From: Acidobacteriota bacterium
GTDB taxonomy: Bacteria; Acidobacteriota; Terriglobia; Terriglobales; Acidobacteriaceae
DNA length: 64,000 nucleotides
Reading direction: 5' to 3'
NCBI GenBank assembly: GCA_018268855.1
Contig: JAFDVR010000003.1
Span: 509-64,508, forward strand
Below the pieces are notes generated by a model, which worked only from the letters and a program-made list of their open reading frames with translations, was not told the origin of the DNA and searched no databases. Every line of letters begins with the position of its first letter. Position 1 is the stretch's first letter. Below, piece by piece: positions 33,554 to 49,240 of this stretch. Made by a program: the position numbers and the translations under genes.

Positions 33554-33949
33554 GTGTGTGTTGTGGGTAGAAGGCCATTGGTGAGTAAGGTGGCGGCGGT
33601 GGAGAAGAACGAGGTTGTGAAGCGGCAGGCGGTGCAGGAGCAGGTGGGGAGCGAGCCGGCGGCGGCGGGGGCCAGAAAGCGGCGGAAGTTGCAGCGCGGC
33701 AGTTGCAAGGAGTTTTTGCAGAAGGAGGTTTCTTCGATTCTGGAAGAGGCTGTGGACAAGTTGAAAGAAAAGATCCTGGCGGGAGATGCAGGGGCGCTGA
33801 AGACGTTGTGGCAGATGAGCGGTCTGGAGAAAGAGCCATCCATCACGCGCAGGAGCAGGAGCAACACGGCGCGGCAGATTTTGAAGGAGCTGGATGAGCA
33901 TGCGGTGGAAGACGAGCCGGGCGAGATGGACGAGAGGCAAGAGGGATGA
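33554..33949 (+). CDS. Hypothetical protein, first gene of the phage-derived cluster
   Basis: 131-aa ORF (GTG start, uncertain). Charged and helical (...KEFLQKEVSSILEEAVDKLKEKILAGDAGALKTLWQMSGLEKE...). 4-nt overlap with the next gene. A small-terminase-like role is only a guess. Confidence 0.35.
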   Translation: MCVVGRRPLVSKVAAVEKNEVVKRQAVQEQVGSEPAAAGARKRRKLQRGSCKEFLQKEVSSILEEAVDKLKEKILAGDAGALKTLWQMSGLEKEPSITRRSRSNTARQILKELDEHAVEDEPGEMDERQEG

Positions 33950-35397
33950 AGAGAGTATGGAAGCGATGGCAGCCGGGATGGCTGATCGGTGTGTTGCTGG
34001 GGTGGGCGCTTGGCGGAATGGGTGGGGTGGCGCACGCTGAAGTGTTGCGAACGCATGTGGCGGACACGCTGTATACGGCGGATGGAGGTGCGGCGCATGG
34101 GACGGCGCTGATCAGTTGGCCTTCCTTCACGACGGCGGCGGGTGAGACGGTGGCGAAGGGCAGCATGGCGGTGACGCTGGGGGAGACGGGCGGGCTGAGT
34201 GTGTCGCTGGCTCCGAATGCGGGCGCGTCGCCGGTGAACACGTATTACACGGTGGTGTTTCACCTGGGGGATGGAGCGGTGAGCCGCGAGTTCTGGGTGG
34301 TGCCTGTGTCGGAGAGCGATGTAAGGCTGGAGCAGGTGCGGGTGAGCGTGCTGCCTGCTTCGGTGGCGATGCAGACGGTGAGCAGGCAGTATGTGGACCA
34401 GGCGATTGCGCGCGCCGTTGCGGAGTTGTCGAACGACGATTCGACTGCGTATGTGCGGAAGGCGGGAGATACGATGGCGGGGCCGCTGGTGCTGCCGGGC
34501 GATCCTGTGTTGGGCACGCAGGCTTCGACGAAAAGTTATGTGGATGCGAGCGTGGCGCAAACGATCTCCGGCCTTGGCAGCATGTCTATGCAGAACGCGG
34601 ATGCGGTGCATGTGACGGGTGGCGTGTTGAGCGGGCTGACGAGTGCAGGCATGGACAGGCTGGACCTGACGATTGGAACGACGAGCGCGCATGGGTTGAA
34701 CTTTGGCGATGCGAACCTGTACCGCTCGGCGGAAGGGCAGACGGTGTTCAACGCGAATGCGAGTGGCGAGATTGGCGTGACGGTGTCGAACCTGAACAAT
34801 GGGCCGGGTGCGGACTCATTTTTTCGCGTGCAGTCGAACAACGCGATCACGACGTCGTTCGGTTTTTATGCGTTCGGTCCGGGACGTGGAGCGGGTGGAT
34901 TGATTAAGCCCTTGTCCGGGTATCTATCGACGGCAAATGGAATGACGAACGGCATGGTGATTGCGACGGAGAGCGCGGCCCCGGTTGTGTTTGGGTACAA
35001 CAACGCGGAGAGCGTGCGGGTGCAGCAGGGGCTTTCGGTGGGGACGTCCGCGGACCCGGGCGCGGGCAATGTCCTGGCGGCGGGCGCGGTGATCGGCAGC
35101 GTGCAGGCGATCGCGTACAGCGCGACTCCGGTGTTGAGCGTGCATGGCAATGCGAACCGGATTGTGCTGACGGGCGATGTGGTGTCGAGCACGATGGATG
35201 CGGGCGCGGACGGGCAACGGATGTGCATTGCCGTGGTGCAGGATGCGACCGGGGGACATGCGTTTGCGTGGCCGGTGAACATGCTTGGCGCGATGACGGT
35301 GGGGACGGCCGCGGGCAAGCGGAGTCAGCAGTGTTTTGTGTATTACGCGGCGGATGGAGCATGGATAGCGGAGAGTGCGGGCGTAGTGAATGAGTAG
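33946..35397 (+). CDS. Phage tail-fibre-like protein
   Basis: 483 aa. Contains the tail-fibre hallmark YVRKAGDTMAGPLVLPGDP...STKSYVDASVAQ and a C-terminal tip-like segment ...IAVVQDATGGHAFAWPVN.... The hydrophobic N-terminus is atypical for a fibre. Confidence 0.5.
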   Translation: MKRVWKRWQPGWLIGVLLGWALGGMGGVAHAEVLRTHVADTLYTADGGAAHGTALISWPSFTTAAGETVAKGSMAVTLGETGGLSVSLAPNAGASPVNTYYTVVFHLGDGAVSREFWVVPVSESDVRLEQVRVSVLPASVAMQTVSRQYVDQAIARAVAELSNDDSTAYVRKAGDTMAGPLVLPGDPVLGTQASTKSYVDASVAQTISGLGSMSMQNADAVHVTGGVLSGLTSAGMDRLDLTIGTTSAHGLNFGDANLYRSAEGQTVFNANASGEIGVTVSNLNNGPGADSFFRVQSNNAITTSFGFYAFGPGRGAGGLIKPLSGYLSTANGMTNGMVIATESAAPVVFGYNNAESVRVQQGLSVGTSADPGAGNVLAAGAVIGSVQAIAYSATPVLSVHGNANRIVLTGDVVSSTMDAGADGQRMCIAVVQDATGGHAFAWPVNMLGAMTVGTAAGKRSQQCFVYYAADGAWIAESAGVVNE

Positions 35398-35472
35398 GTG
35401 CTGCGGTGCTGCGCGCACGGCGCTCCTGCGCGGAGGGCGGACTGCTTTGCGTGGCGCTTCCGCTGGTCGCGA
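35398..35472 (+). repeat. Family-A repeat, full 75-nt copy starting directly after the TAG stop
   Basis: GTGCTGCGGTGCTGCGCGCACGGCGCTCCTGCGCGGAGGGCGGACTGCTTTGCGTGGCGCTTCCGCTGGTCGCGA. Confidence 0.85.
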
Positions 35473-35595
35473 GGAAGAGTGTTGGCGGGGTCGAGAGAGC
35501 CTGCGGCTAAAGTCGTTTTTGTGGCCGGGATCTTCAGGGGCCTGAAGATCCCGGCTCCCTCCGAATGGGGCACCCGCTTTTGGTTGAAAGGACGG

Positions 35596-37044
35596 ATGGG
35601 GGATGGGGTGAAGGAGAGTGAGTGGGCTTTGCTGGGCCGGAGACTGGATCTCCGGCCTGATTGTTTGGCGGGTGTGCGGCTGGCGGAGACGTTGTTGCGG
35701 ATTCGGAACAAGAGCGGGGCGATTGTGCCGCTGGTTGCGAACCGCGCGCAGAGAGCGTTTGAGTGCAGGGCGGGCCGCGCGAATGTGGTGTTGAAGGCGC
35801 GGCAGATGGGGATGACGACGTGGATTGCGGGACGGTTTCTGTTGAAGACGATCCTGATCCCCGGCACCACGAGTGTGCTGGTGGCGCATACGCGCGAGGC
35901 GGCGGAGCAGATGTTCACCGTGGTGCGAAGGATGTGGGAGCACCTGCCGGAGGACCTGCGTGAAGGCGCGGGACGGACGGCGCGGCTGAATGCGGGCGCG
36001 ATGGTGTTTGGCGAGATCGATTCAGAGTTTCGCGTGGTGAGCGCGGCGGAGATGAATGCAGGTCGCGGCGTGACGATACGAAATCTGCATTGCAGTGAGG
36101 TGTCGCGGTGGCCGGGCGATGCGATGGAGACGCTGGCGGGTTTGAAGGCGGCGCTGGTGCCGGGCGGCGAGCTGGTGATGGAGTCCACTGCGAATGGAGC
36201 GTTTGGATGCTTCTATCGCGAGTGGATGCAGGCGGAGGAGAAGGGCGTGGTGCGGCACTTTTTTCCATGGTGGATGGAGGAGAGTTATCGTGCGCGCGCG
36301 GTACAGCGGAGTTCGCTGCGCGAGGATGAGCAGAGGCTGGTGGAGCGCGAAGGACTGCAGCTGGACCAGATCGGTTTCCGGCGGGAGCTGGAGCGAACGT
36401 ACGGCACGATGCGGGTGCAGGAGTTTGCGGAAGATGCGGTGAGTTGCTTCCGGGCGAGCGGCGACTGCGTGTTCGATGTGGCGGGACTGGTGGCGTGTGA
36501 GCCGCTGGAGACGCGGTGGAACGGTGCTCTGCATATATGGCTGCCGCCGGTGACTGGGCGAACGTACGGCATGGGTGTGGACCCGGCCGGAGGCGGGAGC
36601 GAAGGAGATTTTGCCGCGGTGCAGGTGGTGGACCAGTTGACGGGAATGCAGTGCGCGGAGCTGCGGGCGAGACTGCATCCGCGTGTGCTGTCGGGGCATG
36701 TGACGGAGCTGGCGCGGGAGTACAACGATGCGATGGTGGCGGTGGAGAGAAACAATCATGGCGCGGCAGTGCTGGCTTATCTGGATGGGCGCAATCTGCG
36801 GATGTACGTCGAGCATGGGCAGATGGGGATGTTGACGACGAACTTTTCGCGCGCGGAGATGATTGCGTGGATGGGTGTGTTGCTGACGGAACGGCCGGCG
36901 CTGTTCCGGAGCGCACGGCTGATGGAGGAGTGCAGGTCGTTTGTGTTGACGAAGAGTGGACGGGCAGAGGCCGCGAGTGGGACGCATGATGACCTGGTGA
37001 TGGCGATGGGTGTGGCGCAGCGGCAGCGAGTTGTTAGTTGTTAG
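35596..37044 (+). CDS. Phage terminase large subunit
   Basis: Tracked ORF starts at 35398 inside the repeat. I chose the ATG at 35596 (MGDGVKES...). Walker-A-like VVLKARQMGMTTW. Nuclease-half pattern ...NLHCSEVSRW...ESTANGAFGCFY...HDDLVMAMGVA. Confidence 0.75.
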   Translation: MGDGVKESEWALLGRRLDLRPDCLAGVRLAETLLRIRNKSGAIVPLVANRAQRAFECRAGRANVVLKARQMGMTTWIAGRFLLKTILIPGTTSVLVAHTREAAEQMFTVVRRMWEHLPEDLREGAGRTARLNAGAMVFGEIDSEFRVVSAAEMNAGRGVTIRNLHCSEVSRWPGDAMETLAGLKAALVPGGELVMESTANGAFGCFYREWMQAEEKGVVRHFFPWWMEESYRARAVQRSSLREDEQRLVEREGLQLDQIGFRRELERTYGTMRVQEFAEDAVSCFRASGDCVFDVAGLVACEPLETRWNGALHIWLPPVTGRTYGMGVDPAGGGSEGDFAAVQVVDQLTGMQCAELRARLHPRVLSGHVTELAREYNDAMVAVERNNHGAAVLAYLDGRNLRMYVEHGQMGMLTTNFSRAEMIAWMGVLLTERPALFRSARLMEECRSFVLTKSGRAEAASGTHDDLVMAMGVAQRQRVVSC

Positions 37045-37060
37045 TTGTTAGGTGTATGGC

Positions 37061-37160
37061 GGGATTGCTTCGCTTGGCGCTCCCGTTGGTCGGTGCTGCG
37101 CGCACGGCGCTCCTGCGCGCAGGGCGGGAACGCTTTGCGCGGCGCTTCCGTTGGTCGCGA
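37061..37160 (+). repeat. Family-A repeat, about 1.5 copies
   Basis: GGATTGCTTCGCTTGGCGCTCCCGTTGGTCG then GTGCTGCGCGCACGGCGCTCCTGCGCGCAGGGCGGGAACGCTTTGCGCGGCGCTTCCGTTGGTCGCGA. Same half-plus-full layout as 63858-63929. Confidence 0.8.
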
Positions 37161-37185
37161 TTGGAGCTTGTGATTGGTTTGGAAG

Positions 37186-37240
37186 AAAGCAGGTCTCTCC
37201 ACTACGGGCGCAAAAAGCGCGCCCTTCGGTCGAGATGACG
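37186..37240 (+). repeat. Family-C repeat
   Basis: AAAGCAGGTCTCTCCACTACGGGCGCAAAAAGCGCGCCCTTCGGTCGAGATGACG. Copies at 39923, 40974, 41781. Short relatives at about 28873, 38259, 42325, 56097. Confidence 0.85.
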
Positions 37241-37274
37241 TATTGGTAAATGAGGACGATTTGCCTCGCGAGCA

Positions 37275-37315
37275 AACCCACCCATGCGCAAATAGCGCGC
37301 ATGGATGGGGCACCC
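37275..37315 (+). repeat. Family-D repeat (variant)
   Basis: AACCCACCCATGCGCAAATAGCGCGCATGGATGGGGCACCC. Hairpin CCATGCGC/GCGCATGG. Relatives at 38344, 39521 and inverted at 43541. Confidence 0.75.
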
Positions 37316-37348
37316 CTCTATGCGCGATGAGGATGTCGTAAGCTTTGG

Positions 37349-38221
37349 ATGCGGCTGGTTGAGGGGTTTGGCGTGGCGGTTTTGGCGGTGCAGGCGATTC
37401 GCAGGATGCGCGGCGGGGCGCAGAGCCAGTTGATGCTGGGAGCGGATGGCCATCTCTGGGTGGTGAAGTTTCAGAACAATCCTCAGCATTTGCGTGTGCT
37501 GGCGAATGAGTTGATCGCGACTCGTCTGGCGGAGGCGGTGGGACTGAGTGTGCCTGCGACCGATGTGGTGGAAGTGACGGAGTGGCTGATTGCGCATTCG
37601 CCGGAGATGATGGTGGACCGCGGCAAGGGTGTGCGCGAACGGTGCGCGGCGGGGTTGCAGTTTGGATCGCGGTTCATTGGCGGTCTCATGCCGGGGCAGG
37701 TTTTGGACTATGTTCCGGAAGACCAGATTGCAGAGGTGCGCAATGTGGAGGAGTTTGCCGGGATGCTGGTGATCGATAAGTGGACCGGCAATGCGAATGG
37801 GCGGCAGGCGGTGTTTCATCGCAGGCCGCGAGAGCGGAAGTATCGCGCTACGTTCATCGACCAGGGGTATTGTTTCCATGCGGGTGATTGGACGTTTTCG
37901 GATGCGCCGTTGCGTGGGGTGTATCAACGCAACGCTGTTTACGCCGGTGTGACGGGGTGGGAGAGTTTTGAGCCGTGGCTCTCGCGTGTGGAGACGATGA
38001 GCGAGGATACGGTGTTTGCGATTGCGGAGGCTGTTCCGCCGGAGTGGTATGGCGGCGATCCTGCGGAGCTGGAGCAGTTGATGGTGCGATTGCTAGAGCG
38101 GCGGGCGCGGGTGCGGGAGTTGATTGTGTCGTTTCGGGATTCAGATCGGGAGCCGTTTCCACATTGGGGACGGAAGAAGGTTGTTTTTGGGAAGATGCCG
38201 GAGCCGCGGTTTGTTAACTAG
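37349..38221 (+). CDS. HipA-like (PI3/4-kinase-fold) putative Ser/Thr kinase
   Basis: 290 aa. Catalytic-loop-like LVIDKWTGNANGRQ (Asp then Asn at +5, as in HipA GNxDxHxKN and in protein kinases). Metal-binding-like ATFIDQGYCF. N-terminus ...GGAQSQLMLGADGHLWVVKFQNNPQ.... Assignment made by eye only. Confidence 0.6.
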   Translation: MRLVEGFGVAVLAVQAIRRMRGGAQSQLMLGADGHLWVVKFQNNPQHLRVLANELIATRLAEAVGLSVPATDVVEVTEWLIAHSPEMMVDRGKGVRERCAAGLQFGSRFIGGLMPGQVLDYVPEDQIAEVRNVEEFAGMLVIDKWTGNANGRQAVFHRRPRERKYRATFIDQGYCFHAGDWTFSDAPLRGVYQRNAVYAGVTGWESFEPWLSRVETMSEDTVFAIAEAVPPEWYGGDPAELEQLMVRLLERRARVRELIVSFRDSDREPFPHWGRKKVVFGKMPEPRFVN

Positions 38222-38290
38222 CTCCTGCGCGGAGGGCGGAAGACGCGCTTCGCGCGTGAAAGCAGATTCCTCGCTGCGCTCGGAATGACA
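38221..38290 (+). repeat. Family-A partial copy plus short family-C-like unit, starting at the TAG stop of the kinase gene
   Basis: (TA)GCTCCTGCGCGGAGGGCGGAAGACGCGCTTCGCGCGTG then AAAGCAGATTCCTCGCTGCGCTCGGAATGACA. Confidence 0.8.
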
Positions 38291-38343
38291 ATGTATGGGT
38301 ACGTTGAAGAGTTTGGTGGTTGGGTTGCATTGAGAGTGTGAGA

Positions 38344-38385
38344 CCCCACCCTTTCGCGATAAAGCCGCGAAAGAATGGGGCACCC
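38344..38385 (+). repeat. Family-D repeat
   Basis: CCCCACCCTTTCGCGATAAAGCCGCGAAAGAATGGGGCACCC. Hairpin TTTCGCG/CGCGAAA. Nearly identical copy at 39521-39562. Confidence 0.85.
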
Positions 38386-39226
38386 AGAGTGGGAGGTGGG
38401 TTTGGCGGCGCGGGTTCCTTGTGAGTTCTTCCTGGTGCGGTATGTGCCGGATGCGGTGAAGAACGAGTTTGTGAACATTGGGGTGGTGCTGCGGGAGGCG
38501 GCGCGTCCTGAGGGCGCGGTGGTGCGTTTTACACGCGACTGGAGCCGCGTGCGGTGCATGGACCCGGATGCGGATACGGGGATGCTGGAGTCGCTGGAGG
38601 GTGAGATTGCGGCGCGGCTGCGGCTGGGGGATGCGGACTTCAAGCCGGTGATGCGGGTGATGGAGGATACCTTCTCCAATGCGGTGCAGTTGAGTGAGCC
38701 GCGTGCTTCGCTGGCGGAGAGCGTGGCTGCCGAGATGGAGCAGTTGATGGCGATGTATGTAGAAAGCCGCCGTGAGCGTGTGGCGCGGAAGCGAACGGGG
38801 CGCGCGGCGTTGCAGGCGGAGATGCGTGGAGCGTTTGAGCATGCGGGTGTTTGGGAGTTGATGCGCAAACGGATTGCGGCGGCGGAGTATACGAGAGTGG
38901 GTGATCCGCTGAAGATCGATTGCGGCTACAGGCCGGACTTTTATTCCCAGGCCGCAGGCGCTTATTCCCAGGCCGCAGGCGCTGTGGTGAGGATGTTCCA
39001 TGCCGTATCTCTCGAAGGTGATTTGGAGGCGGCGAAGGTGTTGGCGTTTGCTGCGCCGGCTTTGCGCGATGGATTGCAGCGGGTGGAAGGCGCTTCTCTT
39101 GATCTTGCCGCCGTGGTTGAGCCGGTGCGGCAGGTGGAGGAGTCGTTTGCTGAAGAGGGTTTGGAGCGGTACCGGTATGGTGTGGAGACGATGGAGAGTG
39201 CGGGGATTCGAGTGATTGCGGCTTAG
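38375..39226 (+). CDS. DUF3037-like protein of unknown function
   Basis: 283 aa. N-terminal CEFFLVRYVPDAVKNEFVNIGVVLRE...VVRFTRDWSRVRCMDPDAD matches my recollection of the DUF3037 signature (aromatic-x-h-h-R-[FY]-V-P-x5-E-F-h-N-h-G-V-h-L). The ATG at 38375 lies inside the family-D repeat, so the true start may be slightly downstream. Confidence 0.55.
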   Translation: MGHPEWEVGLAARVPCEFFLVRYVPDAVKNEFVNIGVVLREAARPEGAVVRFTRDWSRVRCMDPDADTGMLESLEGEIAARLRLGDADFKPVMRVMEDTFSNAVQLSEPRASLAESVAAEMEQLMAMYVESRRERVARKRTGRAALQAEMRGAFEHAGVWELMRKRIAAAEYTRVGDPLKIDCGYRPDFYSQAAGAYSQAAGAVVRMFHAVSLEGDLEAAKVLAFAAPALRDGLQRVEGASLDLAAVVEPVRQVEESFAEEGLERYRYGVETMESAGIRVIAA

Positions 39227-39362
39227 AATCTTGGGGCGGTGGCGGAGACGGCCCGGCGGGAGTTGCGTATCTAGTTGTTAGTTTTTGGTTGTTCGTTGTT
39301 AGTGCGGTGGTTTTGGAGGCGTGCCTGATGGCGCGCCTTTTGTTTTGGAAAACGGAGATTGA

Positions 39363-39425
39363 CCAGGGCTAAAGCCCTTTTCAACGGAGTGGGTAACAGC
39401 GAGCTGAAGCCCGCTTCCCATCCGG
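39363..39425 (+). repeat. Family-B-related repeat
   Basis: CCAGGGCTAAAGCCCTTTTCAACGGAGTGGGTAACAGCGAGCTGAAGCCCGCTTCCCATCCGG. Matches 11693-11757. Confidence 0.8.
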
Positions 39426-39520
39426 TTTGTGGCAGACTTGAGGGTTTAAAAGCAGCGAGTTAGCAAGTCAGCGGTTTATTTCTCGCACGCTTTAGCTTTA
39501 TGGTCGCGCGGCGCGCGATA

Positions 39521-39562
39521 GCCCACCCTTTCGCGATAAAGCCGCGAAAGAATGGGGCACCC
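39521..39562 (+). repeat. Family-D repeat
   Basis: GCCCACCCTTTCGCGATAAAGCCGCGAAAGAATGGGGCACCC. Confidence 0.85.
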
Positions 39563-39601
39563 GGCTTTGGGGCGGAGTTGAGGGTTTAAGTCAGCGGTTT
39601 T

Positions 39602-39632
39602 GGCACAGCTTTTGGGCTGTGCCTTTTTGTTT
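39602..39632 (+). terminator. Intrinsic terminator closing the kinase/DUF3037 unit
   Basis: GGCACAGC-TTTTGG-GCTGTGCC followed by TTTTTGTTTG. Immediately upstream of the portal RBS (GGAGGTGGG at 39635-39643). Confidence 0.6.
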
Positions 39633-39646
39633 GTGGAGGTGGGTGT

Positions 39647-40949: not shown

Positions 40950-40973
40950 TGGAGAGTATTACCGACTTGAAAG

Positions 40974-41835: not shown

Positions 41836-41893
41836 GTGAGTAGAGGGCGCGATAAAGCTGCTAGAACTTCGGTCCAGATGACGGGACTTTGTT

Positions 41894-42235
41894 GTGGTTG
41901 AGATGACGGTGTTGTTTGAAGAGAGGTGGAGATTGGAAGACGTGATGCATGTTGGTGAAGAGCAGGATGTGATGGAGATTGTGGCTACGGTAGCGGAGCC
42001 GGCGGTGGAGTTGGAGCGGCGCGTTGCGGAGTTGGAGGGCCAGATTCGTGCGTTGATGGCACAGACTTCTGCCGCGCATGAGAGTGCGGGACGGAAGACG
42101 GCGAAGACGTTTTCTGTCGCGGCGAAGGGTGAAGCGATGGAAGCGGGCGCGCTGGATGCGGCGTTTGCGAGCCTGAGCGTGGAGCAGCGGATCGCCGTGA
42201 AGATGGAGATGATGCGGAGCGGGTTGCTGGGTTAG
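41894..42235 (+). CDS. Coiled-coil protein, possible scaffolding protein
   Basis: 113-aa ORF between the protease-like and capsid genes. ...AEPAVELERRVAELEGQIRALMAQ... Start uncertain. Confidence 0.35.
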   Translation: MVEMTVLFEERWRLEDVMHVGEEQDVMEIVATVAEPAVELERRVAELEGQIRALMAQTSAAHESAGRKTAKTFSVAAKGEAMEAGALDAAFASLSVEQRIAVKMEMMRSGLLG

Positions 42236-42377
42236 TGCTGCGCGCACGGCGAGTTAGCAAGTCAGCGAGTTAGCAAGTCAGATGGTCGCGCTTATGCGCG
42301 ATGACGATGCTTTGCATCGTGGCAAAAGCAGATCCTTCGCTACGCTCAGGATGACAAATCTATAGCTGATCGATGTA

Positions 42378-42403
42378 GGTGCGGCTTTGGCCGCGCCTTT
42401 TTT
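42378..42403 (+). terminator. Intrinsic terminator immediately upstream of the capsid gene
   Basis: GGTGCGGC-TTTG-GCCGCGCC (one G-U pair) followed by TTTTTT. Confidence 0.55.
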
Positions 42404-42440
42404 GTTGAGTGAGAAAAGATCGCGCGCGGATGGGCGCGGC

Positions 42441-43424
42441 ATGAGGAGAAAAATGAGGGCAGAATTTAAGGACATTCACGCGGCGGCGGATTACATGGGG
42501 CCGGGCGCGATTGAGGTGCAGCAGTATCAGACGGAGATTACGGACATTGTTCGCCGTCGCGGTGTGTTTGGGCAGCGGATTAAGCAGGTGCCGGCGACGG
42601 GACATCCATCGCGGTTCTTTGAGGAGACGGGCATTCCTTCTCCGACGGCTGCGGCCGGGTTTGTAGATCCGCGCAACATTGTTGCTCCGGTGGTGACGCC
42701 GACGCGCGTGGAGCGCAGCGTTCCGCTGAAGGCGCTGGTGGCGCAGTTGAATTACAACCTCTTCGATCTGGAGCTGGGGCAGCAGCAGAGCCAGTTTGCT
42801 TATCTGCAGGCGAAGGACCTGGCGGACACGGTGGATGGCGTGATGCGCGCGCATGATGTTGCGCTGTGGAACGGCAACGACACGAGCCTGAGCACGCCGA
42901 CGACGAACCAGTATTTTGGCGCGGCTGCGCAGATTGCCGCAGGCGGCAACTCGGTGACGGTGGGCGTGAATGACAGCATTGTGGACGCGCTGAAGTCCAC
43001 GATTGCGCAGATGGTGGCGAACTCAAGCTATGCGGTGAGGCCGACGGCCATCTACGCGAACCCGGTGCTGCTGGACCTGATCGATCGTGAGATGAAGTCT
43101 GCGTTCAACGTGGTGTTGAATACGAGAGCGATTGAGGCGGGTGTGACAGTGAAGACGCTGAGCACGCAGGCGGGCGAGATTCCTCTGATTCCTGAGTGGA
43201 CGCTGAGCTATACGGGCACGCCTGGGTCGGGTTCGGCTGTGCTGCCGGCGTACATCGTGACGGAGGACCTGATCGAGTATCACTGGCTGACCGATCCGAG
43301 TCCGCGTGTGTTTCAGCTTGGCACGCCGGGGTCGCTGGCGAGCCAGCATGTGGTGGTGAAGTTTGGCGGTCTGGTGGTGAAGGGCGCGAACTATGCGCAC
43401 TACCAGGTGCTGGTGGATCGCTAG
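42441..43424 (+). CDS. Phage major capsid protein (HK97-fold, tentative)
   Basis: Position after the protease and scaffold genes. About 327 aa from MRRKMRAEFKD (alternative ATG at 42453 after GAGGAG). ...VFGQRIKQVPATGHPSRFFEE...NYNLFDLELGQQQ...WNGNDTS... is capsid-like. Confidence 0.6.
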   Translation: MRRKMRAEFKDIHAAADYMGPGAIEVQQYQTEITDIVRRRGVFGQRIKQVPATGHPSRFFEETGIPSPTAAAGFVDPRNIVAPVVTPTRVERSVPLKALVAQLNYNLFDLELGQQQSQFAYLQAKDLADTVDGVMRAHDVALWNGNDTSLSTPTTNQYFGAAAQIAAGGNSVTVGVNDSIVDALKSTIAQMVANSSYAVRPTAIYANPVLLDLIDREMKSAFNVVLNTRAIEAGVTVKTLSTQAGEIPLIPEWTLSYTGTPGSGSAVLPAYIVTEDLIEYHWLTDPSPRVFQLGTPGSLASQHVVVKFGGLVVKGANYAHYQVLVDR

Positions 43425-43505
43425 GTCCTACGCGGACGGCGGGGGACGCGCTTTGCGCGTGTTCTTTGGTAAGTGAACATCGCGTGGCGCTTCCGTTGGG
43501 CGCGA
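43425..43505 (+). repeat. Family-A repeat starting directly after the capsid TAG
   Basis: GTCCTACGCGGACGGCGGGGGACGCGCTTTGCGCGTGTTCTTTGG...GCGTGGCGCTTCCGTTGGGCGCGA. Confidence 0.8.
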
Positions 43506-43618: not shown

Positions 43619-44215
43619 GTGGTGTATCTGGAGCCGGGCGAATATGCGCGGTTTGGTTTGGATGACGAGACGGGCGACAGCCTGGTGGTGAGTGCGTCGG
43701 CGATGATCGATGCGTTTTGCCGCAGGCAGGGATTCGATGTGAAGCAGTACACGGAGCGGCTGCGTTTTGCGCCCTGCGGACGCAGGGTGATGGTGAGTGC
43801 GACGCCGGTGGTGAACGTGGTGAGTGCGCGTGTGCGTGCAGAAAGACGAAGGACAGCGATGTTTGCCGATGCGATGGAGGCGGCTGTGGCTGCATTTGGG
43901 CTGGAGGGGAGCTGGGCGAATGTTGCGGTGGAGGAGATGGAGGTCTCTGCGCTGGGAGAGATTTCCTTTGCGGCGCAGACGTTTGGCGCTCCGTGGACAG
44001 AGGCTGAGGTGGTGTACACGGCCGGATGGGAGACGGTGCCCGACGCGGTGAAGGTGGCGTGCGCGCAGGTGGTGCGCAATGCGCAGGCCATGCCGGCTCT
44101 GAATGTAAAGCGCACCACGGTGGATGCGATGCAGATGGAGTACTTCAGCGGCGCACTTCTGGATGAGGAAGTGAAGCGGATGTTGCGGCCGTTTGTGGCC
44201 ACGAGGCTGGGATGA
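43619..44215 (+). CDS. Head-tail connector protein (gp6-like)
   Basis: GTG start after GGGAGGTGGGG. VVYLEPGEYARFGLDDETGDSLVVSASAMIDAFCRRQGF...VVYTAGWETVPDAVKVACAQVV resembles gp6-like connectors. The upstream part of tracked ORF 43196.. overlaps the capsid gene and repeats. Confidence 0.55.
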   Translation: MVYLEPGEYARFGLDDETGDSLVVSASAMIDAFCRRQGFDVKQYTERLRFAPCGRRVMVSATPVVNVVSARVRAERRRTAMFADAMEAAVAAFGLEGSWANVAVEEMEVSALGEISFAAQTFGAPWTEAEVVYTAGWETVPDAVKVACAQVVRNAQAMPALNVKRTTVDAMQMEYFSGALLDEEVKRMLRPFVATRLG

Positions 44216-44604
44216 GCGAGATGAAGGTGTGGGCGCGAAGAGCGGCGCATGCGCTGGTGCAGTCGGCGGGCACGAATACGGTTGCGCTGCGCATGCCTGC
44301 GGCTGCGGGAGCTACGGATGCGGATGAGCTGGGGATTGTGGCGTCTGCGTGGAGTGAGGTGCCGTTGTGGCCGGTGATGGTGCGCACGTCCGCGCGTGGA
44401 ACTGCGTTGCTGGTGAGCGCGGAGGTGTTGCATGCGGCGTTGTCGCTGGAAGATGCGCATGCGGTGAAGCGGGCCTTGCAGGAGTGCGAAGGCGTGTCGA
44501 TTGCGGGCGCGTGGATGTTTGTGCGGGCGGTGGAGGTGCGTGAGGTGGGCGGCGAACCGTACCTGTATCGCATGGAACTGGTGGCAACAGAAGGGAGCGC
44601 ATAA
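44212..44604 (+). CDS. Phage structural protein (head-closure/adaptor position)
   Basis: 130 aa. 4-nt overlap with the connector gene. Function inferred from position only. Confidence 0.4.
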   Translation: MSEMKVWARRAAHALVQSAGTNTVALRMPAAAGATDADELGIVASAWSEVPLWPVMVRTSARGTALLVSAEVLHAALSLEDAHAVKRALQECEGVSIAGAWMFVRAVEVREVGGEPYLYRMELVATEGSA

Positions 44605-44607: not shown

Positions 44608-45096
44608 ATGCAGAACATGGCAGACACGTTTTATGCAACGCTGCGCGACCGGCTGGCGAGTGTGAATGCGGGCCGCGTGGTTGCGGTGCGCGGACAACTG
44701 CGGCCCGCGGTGGTGGTGGATGAGAACGAGATGCCGGAGCAGGCCACGGATGCGGGCGTCTTTCATCTGCGCTGGGGCGCGCGCCGGACAGACCGCGGCG
44801 GCGCGCTGCCCATGGTGACGGCGGAGTGCGTGATTACGTTTCGCAGCAGCGGCGCGGATGCGCAATCCATCCTGGCGCGAGGGCGGCAGAGGAACGCGAT
44901 GTGCGCGGAGCTGGATGCGATGCTGCTTCCGGCCATGGCGGTGAAGAAGGCGTTTAGCGGGAGTGGAGCGGTGGCGATGGCGACGAACATCTTCTGGTGC
45001 GAGCAGGGTGAGCGCGTGGTGAAGGAGAAGGGCGAGTTGCTGGAGACCACAGCGACGGTGCTGGTGATGAGTTATCTGGAGGAGGGCGAGCGATGA
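44608..45096 (+). CDS. Phage structural protein (tail-completion position)
   Basis: 162 aa. Tightly packed between neighbouring genes. Function inferred from position only. Confidence 0.4.
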   Translation: MQNMADTFYATLRDRLASVNAGRVVAVRGQLRPAVVVDENEMPEQATDAGVFHLRWGARRTDRGGALPMVTAECVITFRSSGADAQSILARGRQRNAMCAELDAMLLPAMAVKKAFSGSGAVAMATNIFWCEQGERVVKEKGELLETTATVLVMSYLEEGER

Positions 45097-46067
45097 GCGA
45101 TGCGAAGACCATTGTTGCGACTGCTCCTGTGGCGGATCGCGTGCGCGCCTACTTTGCTCCTGTGAACCGCGTCACCGGCAATGCGGGCGTCTTCGATCCT
45201 GCGCGCGATGGGCGGTTTGCGCTGGAGGCACCTCCGCCGGGATGGATGGATGCGGGCGTGGTGCGGGACTTTGTGCGGCGTTCGGAGACGAAGGTGTCTC
45301 CGCTGATGAGTGGCGCGCCTGCGGTGGCGCGAACGCAGGTGCGCAGCGCGGTGGGTGCTGAGATTGCGTGGACGTTTGATGGATGGAGCAGACTGGCGAT
45401 GGCGCTGAGCGGCGGCGGCGCGCTGATGAATCTGCTGGAGGTTGCGGCGAGTGCGGACGCGAGGGACTCCGGCGGTCATGCCGCGGATGCGGTGCCAGTA
45501 TTGAGTGGAAGCACGGCGCGCGTGTTGCAGGTGAGCGCGGATGCGGGCTTTGCGGTGGGCGACATCGTGGTGGTGGATGTGGACTATGGCGGCGAAACGG
45601 GATTCGCCGGCAGCGGCATCAGTGGGGCGTATGTGGCGAATGCGGACGATGTAACGGGCGATCCGCATACTGTGCGGCGGGTGAGCTTCAACGTTGGGCG
45701 TGTGGTGGATGTGAACGGCGGCGCGGTGACGTTGAGTGACGACTTGCCTGCGGGTACTCCCACGGAAGCGATGAAGGTGGCGAAGGTGCACGGGTTTGTG
45801 GACCGCGAGGGTGGACGGTTCTTTCAGGAGTGGTCTGCGCTGTTTGTGGTGGATGGTGTGCAGGGCGATCGCGTGCTGTTTCACTATCCGCGTTTGCAGG
45901 CCGCGGCGGGCGCGGAAGAAACCGTGGGCACGCTGGCGGGACAACTTTCCACGTGGCCGCTGCGGGCGCGCATGCGGGCGCTGCCTGTGGTGGATGCGAA
46001 TGATGGCGAGACGGTGTTCTGCTTCCGCAGCTATCTGCCTGCGGCGATGCGCGAGGTGCTGCGATGA
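45093..46067 (+). CDS. Phage structural protein (major-tail or tail-tube position)
   Basis: 324 aa. 4-nt overlaps on both sides. No family recognised. Confidence 0.4.
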   Translation: MSDAKTIVATAPVADRVRAYFAPVNRVTGNAGVFDPARDGRFALEAPPPGWMDAGVVRDFVRRSETKVSPLMSGAPAVARTQVRSAVGAEIAWTFDGWSRLAMALSGGGALMNLLEVAASADARDSGGHAADAVPVLSGSTARVLQVSADAGFAVGDIVVVDVDYGGETGFAGSGISGAYVANADDVTGDPHTVRRVSFNVGRVVDVNGGAVTLSDDLPAGTPTEAMKVAKVHGFVDREGGRFFQEWSALFVVDGVQGDRVLFHYPRLQAAAGAEETVGTLAGQLSTWPLRARMRALPVVDANDGETVFCFRSYLPAAMREVLR

Positions 46068-48355
46068 AGGTGTTGATCGACAACCTGGATGGGCAGGGAT
46101 TTGTGGACTATGCTGCGGCGCTGGCGGAGCCGAGTCCTTTGCGGATTGAGCGCGTGCTGAACAAGCCTTCAACGTGCCGGATGAGTTTGTATTTGCAGGA
46201 TGGCGGCATGAACGCTCCTGTGGCGCGCGGGCGTGTGGTGGTGATTGCGGAGAATGGCGCCGGATTGTTTTCAGGATATGTGACGAGCGTTGTTCCGCAG
46301 GATGACAGCGTGGGTGCGTGGACGAACGTGGTGGCGTTGAGCGATGAGGCGCTGGCGGATGCGGCAGGCGAGCGGAGCGGCTTTCGCGTCTTGGATGGAA
46401 CGCTTGCGGAACAGATGCAGCGCGTTGCGCAGCAGCAGGGCGCGGGGCTGATGGACGCGTCGGGCGTGGTTGCGCCGCAGGGCGTGAGCATTGCTCAACA
46501 AAGCAGCGGTGCCACGTTCTCAGAGAATGCGGGCGCGCTGGCCGAAGCCGGTTATACAGCGTATCGCGTGCTGGGCGGAGCGGTGAGCGTGCAGGCGATT
46601 GGAGCGGCGGTGCACGCGCTGGACGATGTGGTGTCTACCGTGTGGAAGTCTGCGCCTGCTGCTGTAAACGATGTGACGGTGAGCGGGGAGGAGGAGCCTT
46701 CCACGTATGTGACGGAGGTCTTTCGCGGCGACGGCGCCACGGCGGAGTTTGTGCTGGCGCATGCGCCTTTCCATGCGAGTGAAGGCGTGGTGGTGGACGA
46801 TGCGTTTGCCGGTGCGGCGCTGGATGCGCGTGTGTGGGCGGAGACGGACCCGGTGGGATGCATGGATGCCGGAGGCGCTGGGCTGGTGCTGAGCGGCGGC
46901 GATGGTGTGGATGGACACACTGCTCTAGTGGCGAACGACGATGTGGAGCTGGGCGGAGCGTTGCTGGCCGAAGCAAGCGGTGTGCTGTTGAGCGGCGCGA
47001 GCGATGGCATACTGTGCGGCATGTACGCGGACGGATTATCGGTGGCGCAGTGCGTTACGGGCATCCGCATACGGCAGAGCGGCGGCGTGACGGTGGCGTT
47101 TGCGCTGGTGCAGGGCGTGGAGACGGGGGATGCGTTTCCTGTGCAGGAGGGGCACCGGTATACGTTTCGTGTGCGGATGCAGGCGAGCGAGGTGCATCGC
47201 GTGCGGCAGACGTATCGCGTGCAGGTGGATGGAAGCACGTTTAGTTTTGGCGGTGGCGAAGTTCCATCTCCTATGCGCGTGGTGTGCGATGTGCAGGACC
47301 TGGGGCTGGCGTCGAATACGGCGGCCACGGTGCTGTGCGATGCGGAGATCGCGTCCGCGCCTGCGGTGGCGCGGTTTGCGGCGGTGAGTGCAGCGCAGAT
47401 GTCTGGTTCGGTGCGGCGTGTGCGGTTGTTGCGCACTCCTGCGGCATGGCTGCGGATGCGCGATGCAGATGGTGTGGAACGTCCGGGGCTGATTGGTGTT
47501 GCGGGCGAAGGTGTGGATGCTTCGCTGAGCGGCAATGGTGTACTGACGTTCTTCAACGGGCGCGTGCCTGCCGTGGGTGAGGATGTGCTGGTGACGTATC
47601 GTGTGGCTGCGCGTTCTGTGGGACGCGCGGAGAATGCGGATGCGATTGCCGCAGGCGATGCGCTTGGATTGCCGGGACGGGCGCAGTGGCGCGGGCGTGT
47701 GCGGCGGCCCGTCACGCGCACGTCAGAAGATTGCGAGCATGCGGCTGCGGCGCTGGTGGCGGTGGCCTCGCATGCTGGCGGAGGCGTGCAGGGCGTGTGC
47801 ACGGCGGTCAATCCGCAGAGGAACGCGGATGTGTGGCCGGGCGATGCGATGGCCCTGGCCACGGGAGAGCGCGCGGTGGTGCGCCGCGTTGCGATTCGCG
47901 ATACCAACAGCCTGCCTGAGGCGCTGGTGTTCGAGATTGGTTTTGCGAACGAGTGGGCCGAAGCGCTTGCGATAGAGACGACCGATGGTCTGAGCGAGGA
48001 CGCGCATCTGCCGGTCGCCGTTGCCACGGATGCAAATGCGCCGGTTGCGAATGTGAGTGCGTTGAAAGTGGTGGCCGTTACGGAGTCTGCGATCCAGGTG
48101 GATGCGGGTGTCGATCCACCGGCGGGCGGCGGGTTTGAGGTGCGGCGATGGGATGCGGGGTTTGGCGCGGCGGCGGGAACGGATGCGGACCTGGTGTTGC
48201 GCAGCGCGGTGCGCGGCTTCGATATTCCGCGCGCAATGCAGCAGGAGATGGTCTTCGTGCGGATGTATGACGGGCCGGCGCCGAGGCGGTATTCGCGTTT
48301 TTCCAACGCGGTGCGGGTGACGGTACGGGTGAGGGGTTGTGACGAATCGCCTTGA
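46064..48355 (+). CDS. Large phage tail/baseplate-like protein
   Basis: 763 aa. N-terminus MKVLIDNLDGQGFVDYAAAL...LRIERVLNKPSTCRMSLYL resembles the starts of tail-hub or host-specificity proteins. Not coiled-coil or Gly-rich like a tape measure. Confidence 0.45.
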   Translation: MKVLIDNLDGQGFVDYAAALAEPSPLRIERVLNKPSTCRMSLYLQDGGMNAPVARGRVVVIAENGAGLFSGYVTSVVPQDDSVGAWTNVVALSDEALADAAGERSGFRVLDGTLAEQMQRVAQQQGAGLMDASGVVAPQGVSIAQQSSGATFSENAGALAEAGYTAYRVLGGAVSVQAIGAAVHALDDVVSTVWKSAPAAVNDVTVSGEEEPSTYVTEVFRGDGATAEFVLAHAPFHASEGVVVDDAFAGAALDARVWAETDPVGCMDAGGAGLVLSGGDGVDGHTALVANDDVELGGALLAEASGVLLSGASDGILCGMYADGLSVAQCVTGIRIRQSGGVTVAFALVQGVETGDAFPVQEGHRYTFRVRMQASEVHRVRQTYRVQVDGSTFSFGGGEVPSPMRVVCDVQDLGLASNTAATVLCDAEIASAPAVARFAAVSAAQMSGSVRRVRLLRTPAAWLRMRDADGVERPGLIGVAGEGVDASLSGNGVLTFFNGRVPAVGEDVLVTYRVAARSVGRAENADAIAAGDALGLPGRAQWRGRVRRPVTRTSEDCEHAAAALVAVASHAGGGVQGVCTAVNPQRNADVWPGDAMALATGERAVVRRVAIRDTNSLPEALVFEIGFANEWAEALAIETTDGLSEDAHLPVAVATDANAPVANVSALKVVAVTESAIQVDAGVDPPAGGGFEVRRWDAGFGAAAGTDADLVLRSAVRGFDIPRAMQQEMVFVRMYDGPAPRRYSRFSNAVRVTVRVRGCDESP

Positions 48356-48648: not shown

Positions 48649-48725
48649 AACGAATTCCACCCCAGCGCATTCCTCAGGCGCACAATTCTGGTCCTCAAAA
48701 AGGAAATGAAAAGGGGGGTGATGAA

Positions 48726-48947
48726 ATGACGGATTTTGAGGCGCAGGTGCTGGCGGACCTGAGTGCGTTGAAGAGCCAGATGCATGCGCTGCTTGGCGTT
48801 GGACAGCCGGGGCGTTTGCAGGCCCTGGAAGACCGCGTGGAGCGGCACGAGGCTGCGGTGCAGCGCATGAAAGGCATGGGCGGTCTGTTGAGTGTGGCGT
48901 TAACGGTAGTGCATGTGGCAATCGATTTCTTCCGGCGCGCGCACTGA
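48726..48947 (+). CDS. Small C-tail-anchored membrane protein (lysis-cassette position)
   Basis: 73 aa. Coiled N-terminal part and C-terminal hydrophobic helix GLLSVALTVVHVAIDFF. Purine-rich RBS. Confidence 0.45.
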   Translation: MTDFEAQVLADLSALKSQMHALLGVGQPGRLQALEDRVERHEAAVQRMKGMGGLLSVALTVVHVAIDFFRRAH

Positions 48948-48982
48948 GACTTTTGTTGAACAAATAAAAAGGAGAATGAGAA

Positions 48983-49240
48983 ATGAATTTTTTGAAGTTG
49001 TTTTTACGTGGACTGGCGTTGCTGCCGAGCCTGATTCAGGGCATTGAATCGATCTTTGGCGCGAAGACGGGCGGCCAGAAGAAAGAGGCGGCGCTGGAGA
49101 TTGTGAGTTCCGCGATTAACCTGACCGATGCGGTGACGGGCAAGCATGTGGTGGATGCGAAGAGCTTTTCTGACGGTCTGGGCAAGGTGATTGACGGCGT
49201 GGTGCAGTGCTTGAATGCGAGTCTTTGGGCGAAGGCCTAG
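48983..49240 (+). CDS. Small membrane protein, holin-like (tentative)
   Basis: 85 aa. AAGGAG RBS. N-terminal hydrophobic helix FLKLFLRGLALLPSLIQGI. Sits at the end of the phage-derived cluster. No endolysin follows. Confidence 0.4.
   Translation: MNFLKLFLRGLALLPSLIQGIESIFGAKTGGQKKEAALEIVSSAINLTDAVTGKHVVDAKSFSDGLGKVIDGVVQCLNASLWAKA

What the first reader, a model, noticed from the sequence alone, without database searches (positions are those of the whole stretch)
33554..49240. Structural-only phage cluster colonised by host repeats: domesticated (GTA-like) element or decaying prophage?
About 16 kb of co-oriented genes encode tail-fibre-like, TerL, portal, protease-like, scaffold-like, capsid, connector and tail-size proteins plus two small membrane proteins. 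I can find no integrase, excisionase, repressor, replication, tape-measure or endolysin gene on either strand; the minus-strand ORFs there are Arg/Pro-rich shadows. Host genes bound the cluster on both sides within the window (O-methyltransferase on the left; higBA then purEK on the right). The first half (33.5-43.6 kb) has 150-420 bp spacers after almost every gene. Those spacers are filled with the same repeat families found next to housekeeping genes such as dnaN, parB and rpmH. The second half (43619-48355) is still phage-like and compact, with 4-nt ATGA-type overlaps at 44212, 45093 and 46064. The long ORFs remain open despite the repeat invasion. That pattern suggests long residence under selection, as with gene transfer agents or other domesticated particles, rather than a recent prophage. 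I am not aware of a GTA described for this lineage.
Basis: partly seen in the sequence, partly recalled or inferred. Interest (0 to 1): 0.65.

Follow-up and report, generated by a model that had tools for sequence, protein, structure and literature searches.

The report
Conserved domesticated phage-particle gene cluster
This is not a dying prophage but a phage-derived head, neck and tail-tip gene set that soil Acidobacteriaceae have kept intact at one chromosomal spot across hundreds of species, which makes it a strong candidate for a new gene-transfer-agent-like particle in a major soil phylum.

Summary
Window 33.9-49.2 kb carries 15 co-oriented genes between host genes:
- portal, putative protease, scaffold-like protein, capsid protein and head-tail adaptor;
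- two neck-sized proteins, a tail tube protein, a tail hub and two small membrane proteins.

Host repeats fill the spacers, and one copy sits in frame inside the portal gene.

New evidence:
- The same cluster lies next to purEK in Terriglobus, Edaphobacter, Granulicella, Silvibacterium, Acidipila and Ca. Korobacteraceae. At least 563 species genomes encode the capsid homologue.
- Every gene was intact in the 28-84 complete copies checked per gene.
- dN/dS is 0.02-0.6.
- The capsid protein (78-92% identity) is more conserved than PurE/PurK.
- Cluster distances track PurEK distances (Mantel r = 0.94).
- TerL ATPase and nuclease motifs are invariant.
- No integrase, replication, repressor or lysin gene was found.
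- Distant free-phage relatives have chaperones and a tape-measure gene between tube and hub. This element lacks them.

Verdict: an anciently domesticated, vertically inherited siphovirus-derived particle cluster, most likely GTA-like. Particle production and DNA transfer are untested. It was previously listed only as a "prophage".

The parts
33554..33949 (+). 131-aa ORF overlapping the start of the fibre-like gene. Membership is uncertain, and it is not a demonstrated small terminase.
   Evidence: GC3 is 0.77. No Pfam, PHROG or PADLOC hit. No homologue upstream of the cluster in other loci. Some other loci carry an unrelated sigma70_r4-like gene of about 150 aa instead.
33946..35397 (+). Fibre-like protein (483 aa) with a signal-peptide-like N-terminus. 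The N-terminal ~200 aa are conserved and the C-terminus is hypervariable. Orthologues are 800-1700 aa.
   Evidence: phrog_16641 tail-fibre motif at aa 166-211, E = 4.5e-8. tblastn hits cover only aa 1-200. The signal-like N-terminus is present in orthologues. It is not homologous to the phage tape-measure-like protein.
35596..37044 (+). Large terminase (TerL), 482 aa from the likely ATG start.
   Evidence: Terminase_6C and phrog_2, E = 2.4e-22. The start was chosen at an SD-like site. ATPase and nuclease motifs are invariant in 55 sequences.
37349..38221 (+). HipA_2-like Ser/Thr kinase, the toxin-like half of a HipA/DUF3037 pair.
   Evidence: PF20613, E = 8.6e-10. PADLOC PDC-M66A, E = 2.2e-7. 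58-79% identical across the loci that carry it.
38375..39226 (+). DUF3037 protein, partner of the kinase.
   Evidence: PF11236, E = 4.2e-21. PADLOC PDC-M66B, E = 5.1e-9. The pair is described as the defence or toxin-neutraliser system DS-6/HipAD (PMC13092281, PMC12548924).
39647..40918 (+). Portal protein carrying an in-frame host-repeat insertion (39901-39977) in a variable loop and a repeat-derived 3' end (40871-40911).
   Evidence: PF04860, E = 4.7e-47. Alignment with 11 orthologues shows a ~17-aa insertion.
41083..41688 (+). Putative prohead protease. The assignment rests on position and conserved His/Ser/Glu residues, not on family membership.
   Evidence: 65-81% identical across genomes. 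Invariant H17, H44, H74, S122 and E124. In phage relatives it is the N-terminal part of a 545-581-aa protein. No Pfam or PDB hit.
41894..42235 (+). Scaffold-like coiled-coil protein.
   Evidence: It lies between the protease and the capsid gene. Only weak coiled-coil family hits. Conserved in about 80 loci.
42453..43424 (+). Major capsid protein (323 aa).
   Evidence: Canonical position in the gene order. 11 of 31 divergent family members hit Pfam SU10_MCP (best E = 3.9e-8), one hits Major_capside and one Phage_capsid. 78-93% identical across genera, with 4366 hits. dN/dS is 0.04-0.13.
43619..44215 (+). Head-tail adaptor.
   Evidence: phrog_442, E = 7.7e-18.
44212..44604 (+). 130-aa neck protein. 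Head-closure or stopper candidate by position.
   Evidence: Conserved and intact in 53 loci. No family hit.
44608..45096 (+). 162-aa neck or tail-completion candidate by position.
   Evidence: Conserved and intact in 71 loci. No family hit.
45093..46067 (+). Major tail (tube) protein.
   Evidence: In phage relatives its homologue is followed by two small genes, a 1600-2270-aa coiled-coil tape-measure-like protein and then the hub. The low-confidence AF2 model has one significant PDB match, the phage Mystique tail tube 9n71_A, E = 4e-5.
46064..48355 (+). Tail hub / Tal-like tail-tip protein. It has an N-terminal gp27/Mu gp44-like hub domain followed by a jelly-roll lectin-like domain.
   Evidence: AF2 pLDDT is 75. 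Foldseek PDB hits include MuSo2 43-kDa tail protein, Mu gp44, Listeria gp18, 80alpha baseplate and VgrG (E from 3e-7 to 1e-4). BFVD hits are phage tail and minor tail proteins. More than 360 full-length homologues exist.
48726..48947 (+). 73-aa protein with a C-terminal hydrophobic helix. Holin-like candidate, unverified.
   Evidence: Conserved at 48-84% identity after the hub gene in the 39 loci with a complete copy.
48983..49240 (+). 85-aa small membrane-like protein.
   Evidence: phrog_36560, E = 1.3e-5. Conserved at 51-92% identity.
35395..43466 (.). Host repeat copies (families D2-D7, D10, D11) in the spacers. Many form hairpins followed by a T-run, which is terminator-like.
   Evidence: One search gives the families and coordinates. 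Terminator-like sites number 29 against 14.7 ± 4.0 expected. The D2 core is also found in the clusters of other genomes.

Best explanation
An ancient siphovirus-type prophage was domesticated in the ancestor of Acidobacteriaceae and Ca. Korobacteraceae (class Terriglobia). It has been inherited vertically at one locus, upstream of purEK and near the replication origin.

The retained genes are TerL, portal, protease, scaffold, SU10-type capsid protein, adaptor, two neck proteins, tail tube, Tal-like hub, a variable fibre-like protein and two small membrane proteins. Together these most likely still build a DNA-packaging, phage-like particle with a stub tail, because tape measure and chaperones are absent. 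Such a particle would work like a gene transfer agent: made from chromosomal genes, unable to propagate itself, and filled with host DNA by a terminase that has no recognisable specificity subunit.

The embedded HipA-like kinase and DUF3037 pair is a conserved passenger. It acts either as a defence or addiction module, or as a switch that arrests producer cells.

Shown here: conservation, synteny, gene intactness, purifying selection and the gene identities.

Inferred: particle assembly, packaging of host DNA, release and transfer.
For: - Same locus and gene set in T. saanensis, T. roseus, E. paludis and many MAGs.
- At least 563 GTDB species genomes encode the capsid homologue.
- Two module orders exist with the same gene content.
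- All genes are intact in 28-84 complete copies each.
- dN/dS is 0.02-0.6. The capsid value (0.04-0.13) is similar to PurE/PurK (0.04-0.16).
- The capsid protein is 78-92% identical across genera, against 65-80% for PurE.
- Mantel r = 0.94 between cluster and PurEK distances, with 0 of 2000 permutations as high.
- TerL ATPase and nuclease motifs are invariant.
- Hub fold, tube by synteny and a weak fold hit, and capsid family SU10_MCP by transitive homology.
- No integrase, replication or lysogeny genes on either strand.
- Only non-disruptive repeat insertions are tolerated, including an in-frame one in the portal gene.
- Low-level RNA-seq contigs cover the T. roseus cluster.
Against: - No particle, packaging or transfer data exist.
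- No tape measure, tail chaperone, distal tail protein, small terminase or endolysin was found in the cluster. A canonical siphovirus tail cannot be built from these genes alone unless missing parts are encoded elsewhere.
- The fibre-like protein has a Sec-type signal peptide, which is odd for a virion protein.
- The RNA evidence consists of assembled contigs at low depth and could include DNA.
- Protease, neck and tube assignments rest mainly on position.
- Empty-site genomes within the family were not searched for.
Confidence: 0.6

Rival explanations
1. The cluster is a domesticated phage remnant kept for a function other than DNA transfer. Examples are interference with the assembly of infecting related phages, a capsid-sensing abortive-infection system built around the HipA/DUF3037 pair, or a bacteriocin-like or protein-delivery particle.
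For: - The HipA_2/DUF3037 pair resembles the validated defence system DS-6/HipAD/PDC-M66 (PMC13092281, PMC12548924), and within Acidobacteriaceae genomes it is more conserved than TerL or portal.
- No tape measure or TerS is present.
- The fibre-like protein appears to be exported.
Against: - Three lineages lack the kinase pair yet keep TerL, portal, protease and capsid (L106, L115, L117).
- TerL nuclease and ATPase motifs and the portal are conserved, which points to DNA packaging.
- The whole head-neck-tail set is under purifying selection, not just one or two genes.
Confidence: 0.25
2. The cluster is an intact or inducible prophage, or a phage satellite such as a capsid-forming PICI, that still moves between cells. 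This is how earlier prophage surveys listed it.
For: - VirSorter, geNomad and IMG/VR call it viral (Eichorst 2018 Cluster 153 includes T. roseus NC_018014 150-180 kb, which is L033).
- IMG/VR contigs L093-L117 carry the same element.
Against: - It occupies a fixed locus in every related genome retrieved, with no integrase, excisionase, repressor or replication genes and no tRNA in the window.
- It is only about 15 kb long.
- Its distances track those of host housekeeping genes.
- Unlike cf-PICIs it carries tube and hub genes and has no integrase or primase.
Confidence: 0.04
3. The cluster is a decaying cryptic prophage drifting towards loss, with ORFs open by chance.
For: - Loss of the tape measure, chaperones and all non-structural modules.
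- Invasion by host repeats.
Against: - Zero disrupted genes in 28-84 orthologues per gene.
- dN/dS is well below 1 at synonymous divergences of 0.2 to more than 1.
- The capsid protein is more conserved than the flanking housekeeping genes.
Confidence: 0.02

Closest known systems
RcGTA-type gene transfer agents of Alphaproteobacteria (Rhodobacter capsulatus GTA; structure in PMC7296036)
   Same: - A chromosomal cluster of about 15 kb in phage head-to-tail order: TerL, portal, protease, capsid, adaptor, stopper/terminator-sized genes, tube, hub.
- No integrase, replication or lysogeny genes.
- Vertical inheritance over a whole bacterial family or order, under purifying selection.
- A portal of the HK97 type.
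   Different: - Independent origin. No NCBIfam or Pfam GTA-family hit, and the capsid protein is SU10-type rather than the HK97 Phage_capsid family.
- No tape measure, chaperones or distal tail protein, and no recognisable TerS.
- An embedded conserved HipA-like kinase and DUF3037 pair.
- A different phylum.
- Function not demonstrated.
Acidobacterial 'prophage Cluster 153' of Eichorst et al. 2018 (PMC5900883)
   Same: It includes the same T. roseus region (NC_018014 150-180 kb, which is L033) and other Terriglobus, Acidobacteriaceae and Koribacter regions.
   Different: There it was treated as a group of predicted-active prophages forming a new viral subfamily. Here it is shown to be one syntenic, vertically inherited locus lacking all non-structural phage modules.
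HipA-like kinase + DUF3037 defence pair (DS-6 / HipAD / PADLOC PDC-M66; PMC13092281, PMC12548924)
   Same: Adjacent HipA_2-family kinase and DUF3037 protein, with PADLOC PDC-M66A/B hits.
   Different: - Here the pair sits between TerL and portal of a structural operon and is conserved family-wide.
- DS-6B also carries DUF1829, which was not detected here.
- The PADLOC scores are modest.
- Defence activity was not tested.
Capsid-forming phage-inducible chromosomal islands (cf-PICIs)
   Same: Small chromosomal elements that encode their own capsid and packaging genes but not a full tail.
   Different: cf-PICIs are mobile, with integrase, replication genes and helper induction, and they have no tail genes. 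This element is fixed in place, has no integrase or replication genes, and carries tube and hub genes.
Uncultured siphophages in IMG/VR (L122-L142; GC 0.39-0.49)
   Same: Homologous portal (31-38% identity), protease (38-49%), capsid (43-53%), adaptor, tube (27-30%) and hub (22-26%) in the same order.
   Different: - The phages have two chaperone-sized genes and a 1600-2270-aa tape-measure-like gene between tube and hub.
- They have extra connector genes.
- Their contigs are 35-120 kb long.

Membership tests
Gene transfer agent (functional class) | Phage-derived structural and packaging genes encoded in the host chromosome | tested here: met
   TerL, portal, adaptor, capsid, tube and hub were identified. 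The cluster is flanked by host genes.
Gene transfer agent (functional class) | No genes for its own replication, integration, excision or lysogeny control | tested here: met
   No such domain on either strand of 33.3-49.3 kb. No tRNA in the window. Several small ORFs remain unannotated.
Gene transfer agent (functional class) | Vertical inheritance at a conserved locus across a lineage | tested here: met
   Synteny with purEK and a GFO/IDH oxidoreductase across genera. Mantel r = 0.94 against PurEK distances. At least 563 species genomes carry the capsid homologue.
Gene transfer agent (functional class) | Purifying selection on the structural genes | tested here: met
   dN/dS is 0.02-0.6. No disrupted genes. 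TerL motifs are invariant.
Gene transfer agent (functional class) | Production of particles that package random host DNA in pieces too small to carry the cluster | not testable with these tools
   This needs EM and sequencing of DNase-protected DNA.
Gene transfer agent (functional class) | Transfer of packaged DNA to recipient cells | not testable with these tools
   This needs marker-transfer assays.
Gene transfer agent (functional class) | Expression under host control in a subpopulation | tested here: inconclusive
   Low-depth RNA-seq contigs cover parts of the T. roseus cluster, at depth 5-13 against about 70 for purEK in run X1. Contig depth is a poor measure of expression and DNA carry-over is possible.
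RcGTA-like (alphaproteobacterial type I) GTA family | Sequence homology to the RcGTA head-tail cluster proteins, as captured by curated GTA and HK97 models | tested here: not met
   NCBIfam gave no GTA model hit. portal_HK97 scored only 53 bits against a cut-off of 112. The capsid family is SU10_MCP-like.
Complete siphovirus tail module | Tape measure protein and its chaperones between tube and hub | tested here: not met
   The tube stop and hub start overlap (ATGA at 46064). Phage relatives have these genes at that position.
HipA/DUF3037 defence system (PDC-M66 / DS-6 / HipAD) | Adjacent HipA-family kinase and DUF3037 protein | tested here: met
   PF20613 and PF11236. PDC-M66A/B.
HipA/DUF3037 defence system (PDC-M66 / DS-6 / HipAD) | Anti-phage protection, and kinase toxicity neutralised by the partner | not testable with these tools
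   Reported for homologues in PMC12548924 and PMC13092281, not for this pair.
Capsid-forming PICI | Integrase, replication module and helper-dependent mobility | tested here: not met
   No integrase or primase was found, and the locus is fixed across genera.

The most novel reading that the evidence does not exclude
Acidobacteriaceae, a dominant soil family, and their relatives carry an independently evolved gene transfer agent. It is family-wide, lacks a tape measure, and its production or producer-cell fate is governed by an embedded HipA-like kinase and DUF3037 switch. This would give soil Acidobacteriota a dedicated, host-controlled route of horizontal gene exchange.
Probability: 0.4. Interest if true: 0.9.

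Novelty: new variant of a known kind. Interest (0 to 1): 0.78.

Why it matters
Known GTAs are few: Alphaproteobacteria, Bartonella, Brachyspira, Desulfovibrio and Methanococcus. No paper found in the library searched describes one for Acidobacteriota, which are among the most abundant soil bacteria and are hard to manipulate genetically.

- **Ecology.** A conserved particle-forming locus would give a mechanism for gene flow in soil.
- **Virome surveys.** It would explain why "viral" contigs from Acidobacteriaceae recur in soil and peat viromes. IMG/VR, VirSorter and geNomad all call this locus viral.
- **Tools.** It could offer a delivery tool for these organisms.
- **Evolution.** The tape-measure-less tail and the conserved kinase pair are new features for studying how phages are tamed.
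- **Annotation.** The locus inflates prophage counts in this family.

Tried and rejected
- **Exact look-up of the 324-aa protein.** It is not on record.
- **A "short version" in Edaphobacter.** The first contexts suggested the capsid module had been lost there. Mapping all loci showed a module permutation: the capsid-to-tube block lies upstream of the fibre and TerL genes. Idea rejected.
- **Giant fibre-like protein as the missing tape measure.** It shows no similarity to the phage tape-measure-like protein, and its sequence is fibre-like and beta-rich. Rejected.
- **131-aa ORF (33554) as small terminase.** It is not conserved in any other locus. Not supported.
- **Phage_lysozyme gene 8 kb downstream in E. 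paludis as the element's lysin.** Apart from the two E. paludis strains it is absent from the window and from the other loci searched. Rejected.
- **Strong GC skew (+0.3) as a foreign-DNA signature.** It extends over purEK and is lineage-specific, being about 0 in T. saanensis. Rejected.
- **Sequence profiles against the PDB.** Capsid (two of three profiles), tube, hub, protease and both neck proteins gave no usable hits. The broadest capsid profile gave one weak hit, 9vel Gp6.1, E = 0.0011.
- **AF2 model of the tube protein.** It was poor, with pLDDT 47.
- **Sequencing runs.** No public run was found for the window's own sequence. The T. saanensis locus was not accepted for a run search.
Full report
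**1. What is in the window**

The window comes from an Acidobacteriota chromosome near the replication origin.
- An Acido-Lenti-1 RNA lies at 28076.
- dnaA is at 16701-18137 on the minus strand and dnaN at 26681-27913 on the plus strand.

Between an O-methyltransferase (32284-33303, minus strand) and higBA and purEK (49404-51844) lie co-oriented plus-strand genes. Family searches identify the following.

| Coordinates | Gene | Evidence |
|---|---|---|
| 35596-37044 | TerL | Terminase_6C, phrog_2 |
| 37349-38221 | HipA_2-like kinase | Pfam; PADLOC PDC-M66A |
| 38375-39226 | DUF3037 protein | Pfam; PADLOC PDC-M66B |
| 39647-40918 | Portal | PF04860, E = 4.7e-47 |
| 43619-44215 | Head-tail adaptor | phrog_442 |
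| 33946-35397 | Fibre-like protein | weak tail-fibre motif |

The remaining genes have no direct family hit. Ten long minus-strand ORFs have no domains and are shadow ORFs. No tRNA, integrase, repressor, replication, lysin or tape-measure gene is present.

**2. Repeats**

Repeat families D3-D7 and D11 occur both in the cluster's spacers and beside dnaN and other host genes. Many are hairpins followed by a T-run. Terminator-like sites are enriched, at 29 found against 14.7 ± 4.0 expected. The D2 core also occurs in the clusters of other genomes.

One D2 copy (39901-39977) sits inside the portal gene as an in-frame insertion of about 17 aa in a variable loop. The long ORF starts at 35398, 40915 and 43196 are read-through of repeats, and the likely true starts lie downstream.

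**3. Comparative evidence**

The 763-aa protein has more than 360 full-length homologues in Acidobacteriaceae. The capsid-position protein has 4366 hits and is 82-93% identical in the 120 best-scoring hits, which include named Terriglobus, Granulicella and Edaphobacter proteins.

Genomic contexts show the same cluster directly upstream of purE-purK. These come from T. saanensis CP002467, E. paludis CP121195 and CP121194, and several long MAG contigs. In many the same GFO/IDH oxidoreductase lies on the left, as in the window.

They include Terriglobus, Edaphobacter, Granulicella, Silvibacterium, Acidobacterium, Acidipila, Acidisarcina, Alloacidobacterium, Bryocella and Ca. Korobacteraceae.

Mapping all window proteins onto 92 loci showed two gene orders with the same content.
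- **Order A:** (fibre)-TerL-HipA-DUF3037-portal-protease-scaffold-capsid-adaptor-g130-g162-tube-hub-m73-m85-purEK. This is the order in the window, Terriglobus, Silvibacterium, Acidipila and Korobacteraceae.
- **Order B:** protease through tube, then fibre-TerL-HipA-DUF3037-portal-hub-m73-m85-purEK. This is the order in Edaphobacter and Granulicella.

An early impression that Edaphobacter had lost the capsid module was wrong.

**4. Selection and inheritance**

- Every gene is an intact ORF in all 28-84 complete copies found per gene. Apparent internal stops were only HSP over-extension at gene ends.
- Nei-Gojobori dN/dS is 0.02-0.6 for all genes in nine genome pairs. The closest pair has dS of about 0.2. 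The capsid value is 0.04-0.13, against 0.04-0.16 for PurE and PurK.
- Identity to the window is 78-92% for capsid, 65-81% for protease and 64-79% for HipA. It is about 60% for portal, about 55% for TerL and 29-64% for hub. PurE is 65-80% and PurK 63-84%.
- Pairwise distances of TerL, portal, capsid and hub correlate with PurEK distances. Spearman values are 0.77-0.85 and Mantel r is 0.94, with 0 of 2000 permutations as high. PurE against PurK gives 0.75.
- TerL Walker-type and nuclease motifs are invariant in 55 sequences.

These results exclude a decaying or recently acquired prophage.

**5. Gene identities by structure and synteny**

An AF2 model of the 763-aa protein has pLDDT 75. Its N-terminal ~230 residues match gp27/Mu gp44/Tal/VgrG-type tail hubs, with E from 3e-7 to 1e-4. 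A jelly-roll domain follows. BFVD matches are phage tail and minor tail proteins.

IMG/VR holds two groups of relatives.
- L093-L117 and L137 are this same element called "viral". Three of them lack the kinase pair.
- L122-L142 are distant phages with capsid identity of 43-53% and GC of 0.39-0.49.

In those phages the homologue of the 324-aa protein is followed by two small genes. Next comes a 1600-2270-aa coiled-coil tape-measure-like protein, and then the hub homologue. Hence the 324-aa protein is the tail tube. Its poor AF2 model still has only one significant PDB hit, a phage tail tube. The acidobacterial element lacks chaperones and a tape measure, because the tube and hub genes overlap at 46064.

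The giant fibre-like protein is not a tape measure.

The capsid assignment is supported by transitive homology. Eleven of 31 divergent family members hit Pfam SU10_MCP.

**6. What is known**

Eichorst et al. 2018 (PMC5900883) listed the T. roseus copy (NC_018014 150-180 kb, which is L033) in "prophage Cluster 153" and regarded such regions as predicted-active prophages. A 2025 peat-moss virome paper saw a shared phage-like contig matching an Acidobacteriaceae genome and mentioned cryptic phages only in general terms. Searches for a GTA in Acidobacteria found no description of one.

The HipA-like and DUF3037 pair corresponds to the defence or toxin-neutraliser system DS-6/HipAD/PDC-M66. NCBIfam has no GTA-family hit for any cluster protein, so the element is not an RcGTA relative.

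**7. Expression**

RNA-seq contigs from T. roseus cover parts of the fibre, DUF3037, portal, capsid and adaptor genes. Their depth is low, about 5-13, against about 70 for purEK in one run. This is weak evidence. It is compatible with low or subpopulation expression, but also with DNA carry-over.

**8. Interpretation**

The best-supported reading is an anciently domesticated, vertically inherited siphovirus-derived particle cluster that works like a gene transfer agent. It differs from known GTAs in four ways: an independent origin, no tape measure, no recognisable small terminase, and a conserved embedded kinase pair.

Particle formation, host-DNA packaging and transfer are inferred, not shown.

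The main rival is retention for another function, such as defence or interference. The main points for that rival are the kinase pair and the missing tail parts. The main point against it is selection on the entire packaging, head, neck and tail-tip set, including in lineages without the kinase pair.

The signal-peptide-like N-terminus of the fibre-like protein remains unexplained.

Noticed in passing
window 33946-35397; orthologues e.g. L001:529-5109, L004:1307-5086: The fibre-like protein and its 800-1700-aa orthologues begin with a Sec-type signal-peptide-like segment (basic residues, a hydrophobic core, then A-Q/V). Only the first ~200 aa are conserved, and the rest varies greatly in length and sequence. 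An exported protein would be odd for a virion fibre.
   Followed up: partly
window 49404-50040; L009:16743-18076: A HigB/HigA-like pair sits between the last cluster gene and purE only in the window. T. saanensis has an IS (rve transposase) at the same junction. This boundary seems to be a hot spot for small insertions.
   Followed up: partly
window 33000-52000; L033, L003, L031 versus L009, L090: Coding-strand GC skew of about +0.3 covers the cluster and also purEK. The same is seen in T. roseus and some MAGs. It is about 0 in T. saanensis and negative in a Korobacteraceae MAG, so it is a lineage-specific bias and not a mark of the element.
   Followed up: yes
window 28076-28120 and 55068-55122: An Acido-Lenti-1 sRNA match lies just downstream of dnaN. 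A second copy, 80% similar (repeat D13), lies near the lipoate-protein ligase gene.
   Followed up: no
window 53838-54762: Three tandem 253-nt direct repeats (75-100% identity) correspond to the three lipoyl domains of the 2-oxoacid dehydrogenase E2 gene.
   Followed up: partly
L106, L115, L117 (IMG/VR): Three variants of the same element have TerL followed directly by portal with no HipA/DUF3037 pair. The pair is therefore either a later insertion or has been lost in some lineages.
   Followed up: partly
L060, L088: Two loci carrying the cluster are labelled Verrucomicrobia and Acetobacteraceae MAGs. With 84-85% capsid identity to Acidobacteriaceae, these are probably binning errors.
   Followed up: no
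L009:2975-3673, L011:3243-3920, L057:812-1261, L068:1819-2427: Some order-A loci have a conserved gene of about 150 aa with a sigma-70 region-4-like HTH just upstream of TerL. It could be a regulator or a small terminase. The window lacks it.
   Followed up: partly
window 40871-40911, 43426-43466, 38223-38263, 27932-27972: Repeat family D3 is a GC hairpin followed by GTTCTT. It sits right after the portal, capsid, HipA and dnaN genes and looks like a dispersed terminator-type element.
   Followed up: partly
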